Positions 814 through 4,920 of a stretch of 5,534 nt of DNA are shown here, one piece after another. Source of the stretch: a virus (Duplodnaviria; Heunggongvirae; Uroviricota; Caudoviricetes); IMG/VR virus record IMGVR_UViG_2690316273_000004, positions 1 through 5,534 of that record; one strand, 5' to 3'. How positions within the stretch are numbered: the first letter of the stretch is position 1; each line of letters starts with the position of its first letter. A model generated the notes under the pieces. It was given only the letters and a program-made list of their open reading frames with translations, was not told the DNA's origin and searched no databases. Both the position numbers and the translations under genes were made by a program.

Positions 814-1266
814 TCAGATACGTGCGGATGTGGCATTACCGTAATGACGGTGCTGACGGGCCACCTTATTGAAAAGTTGACGCGCCATTACCCAAGGCTG
901 GTGCTCCCGGCGTTCCTTTTCGTCCTGCGTCATATAGAGTTCGTTCTGGAGTTTTTCATCAAACCGGCGCGGCGCGCGGCTGCGGCGAAAGAATTCAGGA
1001 TTCAAAGAGTGGATCTGAAATCTACGTGGGCGTGTACTGTCATCAATCAAAACAGACGAATACTTAGACACAGCGATAGCCTTTAAGCGCAGATAAACGT
1101 CGCGCTTATCGACATCCAGATGCGGGTATTCCTTTTCAAGGATTGCTGCGAGTTCTTTCGCTGATAGAAGAGACTTAGTGCGGATCATGTAATCCGCAAT
1201 CTCATACGATGTTATTCGTGAGTGATTTATTTCCATGAAGTGGCGTCCCTGCCAGTTAAGTAACAT
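814..1266 (-). CDS. Hypothetical phage protein (150 aa), Arg-rich, no Cys
   Basis: Minus-strand ORF from the track. ATG at 1266 preceded by AGGTGA 4 nt upstream. An internal ATG 10 codons in (MEINHS) is an alternative start. No recognisable motif. Confidence 0.5.
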   Translation of the reverse strand: MLLNWQGRHFMEINHSRITSYEIADYMIRTKSLLSAKELAAILEKEYPHLDVDKRDVYLRLKAIAVSKYSSVLIDDSTRPRRFQIHSLNPEFFRRSRAPRRFDEKLQNELYMTQDEKERREHQPWVMARQLFNKVARQHRHYGNATSARI

Positions 1267-1311: not shown

Positions 1312-1339
1312 ATAATACCCTCTATTAAAGAAATAGCAA
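1312..1339 (-). promoter_or_regulatory. Candidate sigma70 promoter for the 814-1266 gene: -35 TTGCTA (1334-1339), 16-bp spacer, -10 TATTAT (1312-1317), read on the minus strand
   Basis: Hexamers read directly from the reverse complement of the 1267-1354 intergenic region. Purely a sequence-pattern call. Confidence 0.2.
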
Positions 1340-1354
1340 TACATTAGAGCAATT

Positions 1355-2626: not shown

Positions 2627-2990
2627 ACAATCTACGTAACGTGTCGGCGACAGAAGATACAGATATCTCTCCGGTCGCAGCCCCTACGGTAAGGTCTGCC
2701 AGTTCAGGTGAATCAAATACCTGCACCCCGTTACGGCGTAGAAATAACAGCGCACTGTTTAGCGCGGTACGCTTATTGGCATCATTGAATATATGCCCTC
2801 TCGCTGTAGCCACCAGGTAGGTGGCGGAGACTTCGAAAAGGTCGGTGATCTCTTCGTAGGCAACTCTGGCCTGAACTCTCCCGATAATGGCCTCTGCCCT
2901 ACCCGGATCTGACATTCCCGGCAGGCCGCCGTAGCGGTTTATATTCGCATCATGAAGCGCAATAAGTTCTTCCGGTGATATATGCCTCAT
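2610..2990 (-). CDS. doc: Doc toxin (death on curing), Fic/Doc-family kinase, 126 aa
   Basis: Translation [16 protein letters not shown]...[30 protein letters not shown]...LRRLYGSAE matches phage P1 Doc as I recall it. Fic motif HIFNDANKR is intact at 2769-2795. ATG at 2988-2990 overlaps the phd stop by 1 nt. Confidence 0.93.
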
Positions 2991-3211
2991 TATCGGTTAA
3001 CCAGTTCCTTGTTGGTGGAGTCCAGGGTGTCAAACAGGGATGCAAATTCAGCATCCAGCGCCGCTTTTTTGTAGGCTTCGAAAGTAGCCTTGCTGACAAT
3101 TACTGCTGGCTCACGGCCTCTGCGGGTGATTTCAACCTCTTCCCCGGCTTCAACATTGTTGAGCACTTCAGAAAGGTTGCCACGCGCGGTACGGAAGTTA
3201 ATGGATTGCAT
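2990..3211 (-). CDS. phd: Phd antitoxin (prevent host death), 73 aa
   Basis: Translation from ATG 3211, [73 protein letters not shown], matches P1 Phd as I recall it. The track ORF begins 2 codons earlier at a GTG (3217); ATG 3211 with GAGGTG upstream is preferred. Confidence 0.93.
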
Positions 3212-3250
3212 AAACACCTCGTGTACTCGTTATGTGTACACAATTATAAA
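3212..3250 (-). promoter_or_regulatory. phd-doc promoter/operator: -10 TATAAT (3243-3248, minus strand) followed by perfect 10-bp palindrome TGTGTACACA (3233-3242), a second GTGTAC half-site (3221-3226) and GAGGTG Shine-Dalgarno
   Basis: Palindromes and -10 read directly from the sequence. Two palindromic Phd/Doc-binding operator sites overlapping the promoter is the known architecture of P1 phd-doc autoregulation. No good -35 was found. Confidence 0.5.
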
Positions 3251-3321
3251 CTTCACAAGCATAAAGCACCAGCACTTTGCAGCTTAAATCACCGGACAAT
3301 CGTCAAACTCCCCACTTCGGG

Positions 3322-3340
3322 CATCATTGATGAAATGATG
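3322..3340. repeat. Perfect 7-bp inverted repeat catcatt-gatga-aatgatg
   Basis: Seen directly. Lies 16 nt beyond the stop of the 3356-3820 gene and about 75 nt upstream of the phd -10. AT-rich stem and no U-run, so not a canonical terminator; possible protein-binding site. Confidence 0.4.
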
Positions 3341-3355
3341 TGGTCACACCAAACT

Positions 3356-3820
3356 TTAATCTTCAAGGTCTGCTTCTGATACCACTGTATAACCCAGAAA
3401 TATTTTAATCTCATCCCACAATCCCATGATCTTGCCTTCATACTCTGATGGTTCTCTTACAATTACTGAATCTGGGGGAGAGTGAGCCTCTAATTCGGTT
3501 ATGATCTCATGGCAAAGATTATGTTTGTAATATTGTTTTAGTTGCTCTCGAATAGGTTTTGGCGCACTTTCAATAGTTTCTTTTGCGGCATTTAGTGAAA
3601 GAATTATATTACTTGCGTCATTAACATCCCAGTCTGATCCAGCTTTTCCTGTTGCTATTTTATTTGCCCTATCAGCAAAGTTTATCAATGCTTCACTATA
3701 AAATTTTTCCTTATCGAATAATCCAAGCTTTTTACTTGTGCGCAAACTAATAAAAGCAGCTATTGCTGACCCAAATGCCGCAATAGCTGATGCCCAATCG
3801 GGATTGATATGAAGAAACAT
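3356..3820 (-). CDS. Hypothetical membrane-anchored protein (154 aa), AT-rich gene
   Basis: Minus-strand ORF from the track. N-terminal hydrophobic segment WASAIAAFGSAIAAFISL followed by a basic stretch, consistent with a signal-anchor, then a hydrophilic domain. Clearly AT-rich, so likely horizontally acquired. Confidence 0.55.
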   Translation of the reverse strand: MFLHINPDWASAIAAFGSAIAAFISLRTSKKLGLFDKEKFYSEALINFADRANKIATGKAGSDWDVNDASNIILSLNAAKETIESAPKPIREQLKQYYKHNLCHEIITELEAHSPPDSVIVREPSEYEGKIMGLWDEIKIFLGYTVVSEADLED

Positions 3821-3858
3821 GCTATCTCTACCTAATGCCAGATCTTTAACCTAGAAAT

Positions 3859-3886
3859 ATTGTATCAGTAGTTATGGCTTTGCCAC
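3859..3886 (-). promoter_or_regulatory. Candidate promoter for the 3356-3820 gene: -35 GTGGCA (3881-3886), 16-bp spacer, -10 TACAAT (3859-3864), read on the minus strand
   Basis: Hexamers read from the reverse complement of the 84-nt intergenic region 3821-3904. The -35 is weak. Confidence 0.2.
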
Positions 3887-3904
3887 CAGTAATGCGATTT
3901 TTTC

Positions 3905-4564
3905 CTAGTTGTCATTGCCCCCTACCAACGACAATAAAGCCCTGGCCATCTTATGAACCAACAGTGCATCAATAATGCCAAGCGTATGCCCCGGCTTAAT
4001 GTTTAATGCTGCCTCAAGATGCCCCCTTTCCAGACCGCTTTTCTCGGCTTGTTTATGATGATATGGCGTAATAACGTCGCCCAAAACACGGCTAATTCTT
4101 TCTCGTAATTGCTGGGTGCCAGCACACTTGATCGCTGTATCGTGGAGACGGTTAACCAGTTCGCGATAAACATGCGGCTTAATGCGGATACGTTCACCGG
4201 TGACGCCCTTTCCTGGCGCTGGCACCGAACTATCCGGAATATCCGGATAGTTGCCAGCCTCGTAAGCTACCCGCAGCCAGTGCATGAATGTTTCAGTGGA
4301 CACACAACCACAGTCCACATCGATTTTTCCGCGTTGCTGTTCCAGCCACTGCTCAAAATTCAATCTACACGTATTACTTTCATGTTGCTCTTTTTGTCTC
4401 AAGGCCAGCACCTGTTGGGCCAGTTCCAGAACGATACCGGGTGACGCTAACCTCTCAAATTCCAATAAATAGTTTGCGTCAGGATGACAAGTAGCCTCGC
4501 CTGCAAAAAATACCAATTGCTGTAAGTATGCTGTCGTTAGAGTAGTCATTTCTTTTTGCGCCAT
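3905..4564 (-). CDS. Hypothetical soluble protein (219 aa) containing several Cys/His residues, unknown function
   Basis: Minus-strand ORF from the track, about 50% GC. ATG 4564 lies inside the 3' end of the upstream membrane-protein gene (19-nt overlap). Contains CHPD, TCRLN and DCGC. No Walker A or other catalytic motif recognised. Confidence 0.6.
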   Translation of the reverse strand: MAQKEMTTLTTAYLQQLVFFAGEATCHPDANYLLEFERLASPGIVLELAQQVLALRQKEQHESNTCRLNFEQWLEQQRGKIDVDCGCVSTETFMHWLRVAYEAGNYPDIPDSSVPAPGKGVTGERIRIKPHVYRELVNRLHDTAIKCAGTQQLRERISRVLGDVITPYHHKQAEKSGLERGHLEAALNIKPGHTLGIIDALLVHKMARALLSLVGGNDN

Positions 4565-4920
4565 TTCTTTTCACATTCCTTAGTCCATTTTTCAATGTTC
4601 ATTTTGGCAATATCAGTCATTCCATCACCTAAGAAATACTTTTTCCGGTATGTCTTGCACTTAAACCACACTACAACAGCCACCAGCCAGAAAATAAAAG
4701 GCCATACAGCAATACCAACGACAGCCGCGATAAAGCCCAATAGCCATAAATGAAGCTCTCCAACTTCTGTTTCCGGCAATATTCTTAAAGAATTAAACAG
4801 CAGGCTGAACGAATGGTCGTATGCATTGGCAGTATAAGACATGCAATCCATATAATTAAAGTCATAGCCTGCGGCTGCCGCCCATAATGGGCGGTCAAGA
4901 AAATGTTTTAGTGTCATCAT
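4546..4920 (-). CDS. Hypothetical membrane protein (124 aa): N-terminal soluble region, about 30-residue hydrophobic core, polybasic C-terminal tail
   Basis: Minus-strand ORF from the track. Hydrophobic core LHLWLLGFIAAVVGIAVWPFIFWLVAVVVWF (one long helix or a hairpin). C-terminus ends KKWRKKK. Start is 6 nt after the upstream gene stop; no strong Shine-Dalgarno, so probably coupled. Confidence 0.55.
   Translation of the reverse strand: MMTLKHFLDRPLWAAAAGYDFNYMDCMSYTANAYDHSFSLLFNSLRILPETEVGELHLWLLGFIAAVVGIAVWPFIFWLVAVVVWFKCKTYRKKYFLGDGMTDIAKMNIEKWTKECEKKWRKKK

What the first reader, a model, noticed from the sequence alone, without database searches (positions are those of the whole stretch)
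3356..3820. AT-rich singleton encoding a membrane-anchored 154-aa protein with its own candidate promoter
This gene is clearly more AT-rich than the flanking 219-aa gene and phd-doc, and is separated from the upstream cluster by an 84-nt spacer containing a candidate promoter. An N-terminal signal-anchor plus a hydrophilic domain is the typical shape of prophage superinfection-exclusion or lysogenic-conversion proteins.
Basis: partly seen in the sequence, partly recalled or inferred. Interest (0 to 1): 0.4.

Follow-up and report, generated by a model that had tools for sequence, protein, structure and literature searches.

The report
Uncharacterised phage membrane protein, swapped-in cassette
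This is a real but functionally unknown gene for a small, probably membrane-tethered phage protein that arrived on a 570-bp cassette replacing the DNA-repair genes hot, lxr and humD in a P1-like phage-plasmid, and it may take part in phage-phage or phage-host conflict, though nothing yet shows what it does.

Summary
A 154-aa ORF lies on the minus strand at 3356-3820, with GC 37% (GC3 25%) against 48-52% for its neighbours, and an 84-nt upstream spacer holds the window's only exact extended -10 motif.

The window is a P1-like phage-plasmid (pacA-lpa-pdcB-pdcA-doc-phd). The ORF sits on a 570-bp cassette (3354-3923) that replaced hot, lxr and most of humD. A humD 3' remnant survives at 3284-3353. 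The slot lies in the published hypervariable region 8 of P1-like elements. The cassette is rare: 10 of 5,426 complete E. coli genomes.

The protein belongs to PHROG 1779 (function unknown), about 21 clusters among 1.8 billion proteins. All 31 family loci examined lie in temperate phages of Enterobacterales, co-directional in early accessory arrays with no conserved partner gene. It has no Pfam, NCBIfam or PADLOC match. Two confident AlphaFold models (pLDDT 86 and 88) find no significant fold relative.

A conserved small-residue N-terminal helix with positive-inside flanks predicts N-out/C-in topology, so the helical domain is cytoplasmic.

The superinfection-exclusion reading is plausible but untested. 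Embedding of the family in early lytic operons argues against a classic lysogenic-conversion moron. Interest is modest.

The parts
3356..3820 (-). CDS of the 154-aa protein (PHROG 1779 family), stop codon included
   Evidence: ORF list. PHROG 1779 match at E=4.7e-63 over the full length. Homologues. AlphaFold2 pLDDT 86.3.
3743..3796 (-). Codons 9-26: N-terminal Ala/Gly/Ser-rich hydrophobic helix (WASAIAAFGSAIAAFISL), predicted N-out/C-in membrane helix
   Evidence: Hydrophobicity and flank charges across 37 family members. A11, A18, A21 and S24 are among the most conserved residues of the family. Low-pLDDT protruding start of a 49-residue helix in the model.
3821..3904 (-). 84-nt spacer holding a promoter-like site (-35 GTGGCA 3881-3886; extended -10 TGATACAAT 3859-3867) and a Shine-Dalgarno-like AGGTAGAG (3826-3833)
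   Evidence: No LexA box, no C1 operator and no P1 late-promoter element in the spacer.
3354..3923 (-). 570-bp cassette specific to this variant of P1-like plasmids (ORF + spacer + last ~19 nt of the 219-aa gene); replaces humD(5')-lxr-hot, or humD plus a small ORF, of relatives
   Evidence: Pairwise BLAST breakpoints against L002 and L003. P1/P7 homology ends at about 3353. Only 0-3 differences in 570 nt among copies, against 1.7-2.5% in the flanks.
3284..3353 (-). 3' remnant of humD (...INDARSGEFDDCPVI*), left behind by the replacement
   Evidence: Translation compared with HumD of L002 and L003.
3243..3271 (-). Intact phd promoter (Pphd) downstream of the ORF, with no terminator in between
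   Evidence: Match to the annotated Pphd of P1. No terminator-like site. Fold z-score 0.25.

Best explanation
ORF154 encodes a bitopic inner-membrane protein of an uncharacterised, fast-evolving family (PHROG 1779) restricted to temperate phages of Enterobacterales.

Shown:
- It entered this P1-like phage-plasmid on a 570-bp cassette that replaced hot, lxr and most of humD in hypervariable region 8.
- The family always occupies early-region accessory arrays and has no conserved partner gene.
- The protein is an all-helical domain of no recognisable fold carried on a long N-terminal helix. The small residues (Ala/Gly/Ser) of that helix are as conserved as the core of the globular domain.

Inferred:
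- The N-terminal helix inserts N-out/C-in and packs tightly against copies of itself or against a host or phage membrane protein. The conserved cytoplasmic domain (R50, N52, W63, N70, P115-D116, acidic C-terminal tail) would then sit at the inner face of the membrane.
- From there it acts as a single-gene interference factor in phage-phage or phage-host conflict. The most likely modes are blocking or aborting a competing phage at the membrane, either by superinfection exclusion or by abortive infection through membrane perturbation.
- In this plasmid it would be made from the cassette's own extended -10 promoter, and also as the last gene of the C1-repressed early operon that starts after pap. 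Transcription would run on into phd-doc.
For: - Real, conserved gene.
- Cassette replacement with a humD remnant.
- Known hypervariable, low-GC region 8 (pmgT...humD): PMC9603915.
- Rarity and recent spread: 10 of 5,426 E. coli genomes, all on 94-100 kb plasmids; 9 near-identical plasmid copies in E. coli, E. albertii and E. marmotae; cassette 0-3 differences in 570 nt against flanks at 1.7-2.5%.
- Family only in temperate-phage accessory arrays. These are slots that also hold defence or counter-defence cargo, such as a gene annotated PD-lambda-1 in the same ren-ninB slot of PhiR26_1.
- Two diverged paralogues (28% identity) in one prophage, and about 30% identity between clades in closely related hosts. 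Both fit arms-race diversification.
- Lower GC than the flanks throughout the family.
- Conserved small-residue helix with positive-inside flanks. It resembles the hole-forming TMD2 of S21-type pinholins in pattern and orientation (hhalign P=1.8e-4, probability 48%).
- A 288-aa variant is fused to extra hydrophobic segments.
- Promoter-like extended -10, unique in the window.
- C1-operator-like site about 4.1 kb upstream, after pap.
Against: - There is no functional evidence of any kind, and the function is inferred from architecture and context only.
- No match to any PADLOC defence model or to SieB, RexB or Ren.
- In lambdoid relatives the gene is embedded in early lytic operons without a consistent promoter. 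It need not be expressed in lysogens, and a role in the phage's own lytic cycle is equally compatible.
- The same arrays mostly hold DNA-metabolism accessories (theta, SSB, ERF/RecT, DUF551, Ead/Ea22, NinB), not defence genes.
- The window's hydrophobic helix is marginal (KD 1.44), so membrane insertion itself is unproven.
- The window copy lacks a 7-residue segment, including a nearly invariant Gln, that is present in most relatives.
Confidence: 0.38

Rival explanations
1. It is an early-lytic accessory protein serving the phage's own development. It is made from the early operon after derepression and acts at the inner membrane on a host protein, as host takeover or as a counter to a membrane-bound host defence (in the way T4 RII counters Rex). 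It does not protect the lysogen.
For: In every lambdoid/P22-like locus the gene is co-directional in the pR or pL early operon. It often lies 13-34 nt from the preceding gene or just after a terminator-like hairpin, with no consistent own promoter. In P1-like elements it is the last gene of an operon that begins at a C1-operator-like site after pap. Its neighbours are early accessory genes (theta, SSB, ERF/RecT, Ead/Ea22, DUF551).
Against: In this window the gene has an 84-nt spacer containing the only exact extended -10 motif of the window. It also sits next to constitutively expressed phd-doc, in a slot that in P1 holds lysogen-expressed, LexA-regulated genes. No known anti-defence family matches. 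Membrane-anchored counter-defence proteins are uncommon (general knowledge).
Confidence: 0.28
2. It modulates lysis timing or membrane integrity. The pinholin-TMD2-like helix would let it co-assemble with holins (its own or a competitor's), so that it acts as an antiholin or a premature-lysis trigger.
For: The best non-family profile matches among about 320 phage ORF products are three S21-type pinholins. They align family residues 4-38 to holin TMD2 plus its basic tail, in the same predicted orientation. The small-residue face is conserved.
Against: Transmembrane helices have biased composition, and P=1.8e-4 among about 330 comparisons is borderline. Loci carrying the family have at least four different holin families, and P1 uses LydA, so there is no co-occurrence. 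The gene is never in a lysis cassette.
Confidence: 0.1
3. It is a DNA-replication or repair accessory functionally linked to theta/Hot (for example tethering Pol III epsilon-theta to the membrane). On this reading it is a functional substitute for the hot-humD module it replaced.
For: Theta genes lie 13-15 nt upstream in L014-16 and L025-26, as a decayed remnant in L010-13, and nearby in L030. The cassette replaces hot. There is a weak profile similarity to the C-terminal half of Hot (hhalign score 20.6, above 100 of 100 column shuffles), and Hot ranks second in the PDB profile search at E=1.1.
Against: Against real proteins theta ranks only fourth, below the holins. hhalign probability is 7-10%. 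No Foldseek hit to Hot structures appears in either model's top 50. Adjacency is specific to some clades and absent in L004/5, L006-9, L023, L024 and L028. Theta is simply a common occupant of these arrays.
Confidence: 0.06
4. It is a neutral hitch-hiker or a decaying gene with no current function in this plasmid.
For: Among the copies there are 4 non-synonymous changes to 1 synonymous. The window copy is the shortest and least hydrophobic member and lacks a 7-residue segment containing a nearly invariant Gln.
Against: The ORF is intact in all 10 E. coli genomes and in E. albertii and E. marmotae plasmids. All other conserved motifs are retained and the fold prediction is confident. Five substitutions are too few to infer relaxed selection.
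Confidence: 0.06

Closest known systems
PHROG 1779 (phage protein family, function unknown)
   Same: Full-length match at E=4.7e-63. Same length class and same temperate-phage origin.
   Different: Nothing is known about the family. The window copy is a divergent, shorter member (154 aa against 159-173 aa) and is the only clade found on P1-like phage-plasmids.
Prophage superinfection-exclusion / abortive-infection membrane proteins of lambdoid phages and P1 (SieB, SieA, RexB, HK97 gp15, T4 Imm, P1 Sim)
   Same: Small, non-essential, AT-rich, fast-evolving membrane-associated proteins encoded in accessory positions of temperate phages. SieB also lies within an early operon.
   Different: No sequence or profile similarity to lambda SieB, RexB or Ren and no Pfam or PADLOC hit. 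It has a single N-out/C-in helix with a large cytoplasmic domain. Expression in lysogens and any exclusion phenotype are untested.
HeLo / HeLo-like (PF17111) / SesA / BELL / MLKL-4HB membrane-targeting cell-death domains
   Same: Architecture: an N-terminal hydrophobic helix rich in small residues, preceded by an acidic residue, on a helical bundle of about 150 residues (10.1101/2020.01.06.895854). One member (Hafnia P0007) carries the UniRef name of PF17111.
   Different: The current Pfam gives no hit for P0007 even at E<=10, and no HeLo-type family appeared among those listed for the other members. The PDB profile search and two Foldseek searches give no HET-S or MLKL match in the top 50. 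The hydrophobic helix starts at about residue 9, not residue 1-3. There is no amyloid or NLR partner.
S21-type pinholin (Phage_holin_2_1), TMD2
   Same: Interfacial Trp, then a small-xxx-small helix, then a basic cytoplasmic flank, in the same orientation (hhalign probability 48%, P=1.8e-4).
   Different: One helix rather than two, no SAR-type TMD1, a cytoplasmic domain of about 125 residues that holins lack, and never located in a lysis cassette.
P1 hot-lxr-humD module (the genes it replaces)
   Same: Same slot next to Pphd. Theta genes neighbour family members in other phages.
   Different: No LexA box or late promoter. No credible homology to Hot or to HumD.

Membership tests
PHROG 1779 | Significant full-length match to the family profile | tested here: met
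   E=4.7e-63, residues 1-154 against profile positions 1-169 of 169.
Moron (autonomous lysogen-expressed cargo unit) | Nucleotide composition distinct from the flanks | tested here: met
   GC 0.370 and GC3 0.252 against 0.48-0.525 in the 219-aa gene, phd and doc. Family members are 0.43-0.445 against flanks of about 0.49-0.52 in six of the eight loci measured; in L004/L005 the gene is not lower than its upstream flank.
Moron (autonomous lysogen-expressed cargo unit) | Own promoter | tested here: inconclusive
   GTGGCA-16-TGaTACAAT lies in the spacer. The generic scan is at chance level, but this is the only exact TGnTAnAAT in the window. Relatives have no consistent promoter.
Moron (autonomous lysogen-expressed cargo unit) | Own terminator | tested here: not met
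   No terminator-like site lies between the stop codon and Pphd, and the fold z-score is 0.25.
SieB / RexB / Ren exclusion proteins of lambda | Sequence or profile homology | tested here: not met
   hhalign probabilities 0.2%, 0.1% and 0.1%. No Pfam hit.
Superinfection exclusion (functional class) | Expressed in the lysogen and blocks entry or development of a superinfecting phage | not testable with these tools
   Needs plaque, DNA-entry and expression assays.
Known anti-phage defence systems (PADLOC-DB 2.0) | Match to a defence protein model | tested here: not met
   No families for the window protein. Among 34 members there are only scattered sub-threshold hits to unrelated models.
HeLo / HeLo-like / SesA / BELL | Match to PF14479, PF17111 or PF17707, or to HET-S/MLKL structures | tested here: not met
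   No Pfam hit for P0007 at E<=10, and no HeLo-type family among the 25 of 41 families listed for the 34 members. PDB profile search: none. Foldseek best E is 0.49 and 0.52, with no HeLo or MLKL in the top 50.
HeLo / HeLo-like / SesA / BELL | N-terminal hydrophobic helix on an alpha-helical bundle | tested here: met
   Models; hydrophobicity. This is an architectural resemblance only.
Pinholin (Phage_holin_2_1) | Two TMDs (SAR TMD1 plus hole-forming TMD2), encoded in a lysis cassette | tested here: not met
   A single hydrophobic helix, and the gene lies in early arrays rather than next to an endolysin. Only a TMD2-like pattern is present.
DNA polymerase III theta / Hot (PF06440) | Homology to theta | tested here: not met
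   hhalign probability 7-10%. Theta ranks fourth among about 320 unrelated ORF products. No Pfam hit.
Bitopic inner-membrane protein, N-out/C-in | Hydrophobic helix of about 18-20 residues with a positive-inside charge bias | tested here: inconclusive
   The charge bias is consistent in 35 of 37 members scored; the exceptions are the truncated P0013 and the extended P0012. Family KD means are 1.45-2.5, but the window copy is marginal at KD 1.44 and Hessa sum +3.9. No dedicated topology predictor or experiment was available.

The most novel reading that the evidence does not exclude
The family is a phage-borne, single-gene membrane-permeabilising executioner. Its cytoplasmic helical domain holds the conserved small-residue N-terminal helix in check until a trigger (a competing phage's protein, or a step of the phage's own cycle) releases it. 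The helix then oligomerises into pores, analogous to HeLo/BELL/MLKL-type cell-death domains or to pinholin TMD2. That would be a new fold for abortive infection or exclusion carried by temperate phages and P1-like plasmids.
Probability: 0.12. Interest if true: 0.7.

Novelty: new member of a known kind. Interest (0 to 1): 0.32.

Why it matters
P1-like phage-plasmids are widespread in clinical and food-chain E. coli. Their eight hypervariable regions are where cargo such as resistance genes and defence or exclusion functions is exchanged. This case shows a clean cassette swap: an SOS-linked module (hot-lxr-humD) was replaced by a gene from the lambdoid early-accessory pool. It links region 8 of P1 to the O/P-ninB and distal-pL arrays of lambdoid phages as one shared gene market. 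The protein family is small, fast-evolving, confined to phages and of unrecognised fold. Its membrane helix is as conserved as its globular core, which makes it a reasonable candidate for a new phage-conflict function. If it proved to be an exclusion or abortive-infection protein it would add a single-gene system missing from current defence catalogues. If it serves the phage's own lytic cycle it would annotate a recurrent 'ea'/nin-region ORF. Either way the practical gain is modest until a phenotype is found.

Tried and rejected
1. Known families. Pfam, NCBIfam and PADLOC scans of the window protein, and Pfam and PADLOC scans of all 34 family members, gave only sub-threshold noise such as Ribosomal_L12, DUF503 and Vpu.
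2. Fold recognition. Recurrent but insignificant HEPN/MntA-HepT hits were checked by eye for a conserved Rx4-6H motif, and none is present. The PDB sequence-profile search found nothing.
3. Theta/Hot homology. The score exceeds column shuffles but is no better than real unrelated proteins, so it was dropped.
4. HeLo-like lead from a UniRef name. It was not reproduced.
5. SieB, RexB and Ren comparisons were negative.
6. Regulatory elements in the spacer. No LexA box, C1 operator or P1 late promoter.
7. Rfam. Only a chance-level sX8 hit elsewhere in the window.
8. Donor of the cassette. There is no DNA match outside P1-like elements in phages, plasmids, E. coli genomes, GTDB genomes or IMG/VR, and no trace in the lambdoid loci.
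9. Boundary repeats as a recombination signature. They are at chance level.
10. Pattern-based locus search with the family alignment failed because the alignment is too divergent.
11. Literature. No paper addresses this gene or PHROG 1779. PhiR26_1 is not described in the held library.

Full report
WHAT THE WINDOW IS

All sizeable genes are on the minus strand. Their order is that of phage P1: pacA (27-728, partial), lpa (814-1266), pdcB/DUF968 (1355-2398), pdcA (2426-2626), doc (2610-2990) and phd (2990-3217). Then come the ORF in question (3356-3820), a 219-aa gene (3905-4564), a 124-aa gene (4546-4920) and a 97/129-aa gene.

Megablast against phages gives 94-95.5% identity to P1, P7, SJ46 and RCS47, but only for window 3200-3353. 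The matched stretch is annotated 'humD | phd'. The closest full-length matches are circular plasmids of 93-99 kb from E. coli, typed IncY or similar and non-mobilizable, that is, P1-like phage-plasmids.

CHECKING THE OBSERVATION

The ORF, its length, the 84-nt spacer and the AT-richness are all as described. GC is 0.370 and GC3 0.252, against 0.48-0.525 for the 219-aa gene, phd and doc. The two genes further upstream are also AT-rich (0.39-0.40), so this is not the only low-GC gene in the region.

The promoter-like site GTGGCA-16-TACAAT scores 9/12, which the shuffles reach equally often. It does carry a TG extension, and TGATACAAT (3859-3867) is the only exact TGnTAnAAT in the 5.5-kb window on either strand. 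This test was chosen after seeing the sequence, so I treat it as moderate support.

A Shine-Dalgarno-like AGGTAGAG ends 5 nt before the ATG. The start codon is confirmed by homologues that begin at the same place and share a Trp at about position 8-9.

THE CASSETTE

Pairwise BLAST against humD-type relatives puts the breakpoints at 3353/3354 and 3923/3924. The 570 bp in between contain the ORF, its spacer and the last ~19 nt of the 219-aa gene, whose C-terminal tail therefore differs between variants. Relatives carry other cargo in the same place:
- humD, hot (theta) and lxr, 1,370 bp in L002 as in P1.
- humD plus a small ORF, 1,033 bp in L003.

Immediately downstream of the ORF's stop, the last ~16 codons of humD (...INDARSGEFDDCPVI*) survive at 3284-3353. 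The arrangement therefore derives from a humD-bearing ancestor by replacement.

With the replacement went P1's LexA box and the late promoter LPhot. Pphd is intact at 3243-3271, and nothing terminator-like separates it from the ORF.

The slot lies in 'highly variable region 8 (pmgT...humD)' of P1-like phage-plasmids, a region noted for low G+C (PMC9603915).

The cassette is rare and recent:
- It occurs in 10 of 5,426 complete E. coli genomes, always on plasmids of 94-100 kb.
- Near-identical copies occur on 9 PLSDB plasmids, including E. albertii and E. marmotae.
- Copies differ at 0-3 of 570 positions, while the flanks differ by 1.7-2.5%.
- No donor DNA was found in any collection.

THE PROTEIN FAMILY

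Pfam, NCBIfam and PADLOC give nothing. PHROG 1779 (function unknown) matches over the full length at E=4.7e-63. An exhaustive HMMER scan of 1.84 billion cluster representatives finds only 21 clusters at E<=0.001. A profile search of the 5.8-billion set adds close variants from Cronobacter, Enterobacter, Citrobacter and Klebsiella. A cluster look-up adds Raoultella, Hafnia and Pantoea sources.

Members are 153-173 aa and 25-41% identical to the window protein. Conserved features are:
- An N-terminal Trp followed by an Ala/Gly/Ser-rich hydrophobic helix. A11, A18, A21 and S24 are invariant or nearly so.
- An 'A-RAN' motif.
- An invariant Trp in 'DW.F..ANI'.
- 'YF..L.H.I' and 'PPD' motifs.
- 'W...FF' and, in many members, an acidic tail D-x-D-L-x-D.

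There is no catalytic-looking constellation. The window copy is the shortest full-length member. It lacks a 7-residue segment containing a nearly invariant Gln just after the hydrophobic helix.

STRUCTURE AND TOPOLOGY

AlphaFold2 on a 34-sequence alignment gives pLDDT 86.3 and pTM 0.73. The model has one 49-residue helix (7-55) whose first third protrudes at lower confidence, then four to five helices forming a compact bundle. A second model, for the Hafnia member, has the same layout (pLDDT 88.3).

Foldseek finds nothing significant in the PDB (best E 0.49 and 0.52) or in BFVD (best E 0.33). The hits are generic helical bundles. A PDB sequence-profile search is also empty.

Across 37 members the hydrophobic helix has KD means of 1.45-2.5. 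In 35 of them it has an acidic N-flank with almost no Lys/Arg and a C-flank with 1-3 Lys/Arg. That is a consistent positive-inside signature for N-out/C-in, so the globular domain should be cytoplasmic. The two exceptions are a truncated member (P0013) and a 288-aa variant.

The window copy is the least hydrophobic (KD 1.44, Hessa sum +3.9), so insertion is plausible but unproven. The 288-aa variant carries additional clearly hydrophobic segments upstream.

The small residues of the helix are as conserved as the core of the domain. This argues that the helix makes specific packing contacts rather than serving as a passive anchor. This step is inference.

GENOMIC CONTEXT OF RELATIVES

I examined 31 family-bearing loci (L001, L004-L016, L018-L026, L028-L031 and the window). 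All relatives outside the P1-like elements are in lambdoid or P22-like prophages or phages, always co-directional with early genes. They occupy three positions:
- The last gene of the variable array between O/P (or ren/rha) and ninB.
- Directly after a theta gene, with a 13-15 nt gap in L014-16 and L025-26 and a decayed theta remnant in L010-13.
- The distal pL operon, after RecT/ERF/Rad52 and SSB and before xis/int.

No neighbouring gene is conserved. The ~260 nt downstream (the ninB leader) are 85-97% identical across loci whose family genes are only ~30% identical. Upstream DNA does not travel with the gene. This is the signature of cassette exchange at a conserved boundary.

L014 and L015 hold two diverged paralogues (28% identity) flanking theta. 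The window protein is closer to the upstream one (36%).

These lambdoid arrays contain the same kinds of genes (Ead/Ea22, DUF551, theta) as region 8 of the P1-like plasmids. A C1-operator-like site lies right after pap, about 4.1 kb upstream of the ORF, with only co-directional genes in between. The ORF is therefore also the last gene of what looks like a C1-repressed early operon.

Promoter and terminator scans in four lambdoid contexts show no consistent promoter of the gene's own. In Cronobacter the gene is bracketed by terminator-like hairpins.

LEADS TESTED

Theta/Hot. Hot appeared second in the PDB profile search (E=1.1). It aligns with pairwise P=0.003-0.005, above 100 of 100 column shuffles. 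Against about 320 real ORF products from the fetched loci, however, it ranks only fourth outside the family. I do not count it as homology.

Pinholins. The three proteins ranking above theta are S21-type pinholins. Their TMD2 plus basic tail aligns to family residues 4-38 (probability 48%, P=1.8e-4). This is a resemblance of helix type and orientation, not evidence of common descent. Holin families also differ among loci that carry the family.

HeLo-like. UniRef names the Hafnia member 'Fungal N-terminal domain-containing protein', which is the description of PF17111. [quoted passage not shown] The current Pfam copy gives no hit even at E<=10, and the fold searches show no HET-S or MLKL match. 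The analogy is architectural only.

SieB, RexB and Ren. No similarity.

INTERPRETATION

Shown: this is a real, horizontally acquired gene of a small family found only in phages. It was inserted by cassette replacement into a known hypervariable slot, and it encodes an all-helical protein of unrecognised fold with a conserved hydrophobic N-terminal helix.

Inferred: the N-out/C-in membrane topology, specific helix packing, and a role in conflict at the inner membrane.

I put about 0.38 on an exclusion or abortive-infection type of interference. I put about 0.28 on an early-lytic host-takeover or counter-defence role, 0.10 on lysis-timing modulation, 0.06 on a theta-linked replication role and 0.06 on no current function. 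The remainder is for something not considered.

The predicted topology is the reverse of a signal-anchor, and the family's usual embedding in early lytic operons is not what a lysogenic-conversion moron looks like. Even so, in this particular plasmid the cassette brings a credible promoter and sits beside constitutively expressed phd-doc.

VERDICT

This is an ordinary kind of thing, an uncharacterised accessory ORF in a phage variable region, documented here in some detail. It carries a modest chance of hiding a new single-gene membrane-acting conflict system. Interest 0.32.

Noticed in passing
window 3284-3353 (-): A 3' remnant of humD (about 16 recognisable codons plus the stop) lies directly after the ORF's stop codon. 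It shows the present arrangement arose by replacement within a humD-bearing P1-type ancestor. The listed 50-aa ORF at 3289-3441 is a spurious out-of-frame reading across it.
   Followed up: yes
L014 and L015 7150-7662, 7730-7987, 8001-8483 (L016 by gene layout): Two diverged paralogues of the family (170 aa and 160 aa, 28% identical) flank a theta (Pol III theta/Hot-like) gene in one lambdoid prophage. In the Klebsiella loci L010-13 the 207-nt gap upstream of the family gene is a decayed theta remnant.
   Followed up: partly
L004 6421-6449, L010 8483-8511, L014 8480-8508 and about 260 nt downstream of each family gene: The DNA just after the family gene (the ninB leader, including a TTGATT-17-CATAAT motif and a tR2-like hairpin) is 85-97% identical across lambdoid loci whose family genes share only about 30% protein identity. 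It is a conserved recombination boundary for cassette exchange.
   Followed up: partly
window 4546-4920 (-): The 124-aa gene two positions upstream has a strongly hydrophobic stretch (LHLWLLGFIAAVVGIAVWPFIFWLVAVVVWF, probably two transmembrane helices). It matches PHROG 2638 (function unknown), has a weak sub-threshold hit to the CptA membrane-toxin family (E=0.08), and overlaps the 219-aa gene by 19 nt.
   Followed up: no
window 3905-4564 (-): The 219-aa gene is mosaic. Its N-terminal ~45 residues and its C-terminal tail differ between P1-like variants while the middle is conserved. It matches PHROG 21459 and partial PHROGs, all of unknown function.
   Followed up: no
window 1337-1353 (-) and about 782 (-): The C1 operator upstream of lpa (Olpa, 3 mismatches to the consensus) and the late-promoter -22 element upstream of pacA (LPpac) are conserved where P1's annotation places them.
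   Followed up: partly
L019 3868-3884: A C1-operator-like site (2 mismatches) lies right after pap, at the position of P1's Op88/OpmgT. It suggests the whole ~4-kb variable array ending in the ORF is a C1-repressed early operon.
   Followed up: partly
L004 2740-4242 (-): In phage PhiR26_1 the same ren-ninB accessory slot that holds the distant homologue also holds a gene annotated PD-lambda-1 (DUF4041), on the opposite strand.
   Followed up: no
P0007 (Hafnia alvei; L028 and L029 7001-7519): UniRef labels this member 'Fungal N-terminal domain-containing protein' (the HeLo-like domain, PF17111). The label is not reproduced by the current Pfam copy.
   Followed up: yes
window 3320-3340 and 3959-3979: An imperfect 21-nt inverted repeat (81% complementary) brackets the cassette, lying in the conserved flanks. 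It is about what chance gives for a region of this size.
   Followed up: partly
window 965-1047 (+): A weak Rfam hit to sRNA sX8 (21.8 bits against a gathering score of 50, E=0.56) lies antisense within lpa. It is almost certainly chance.
   Followed up: no
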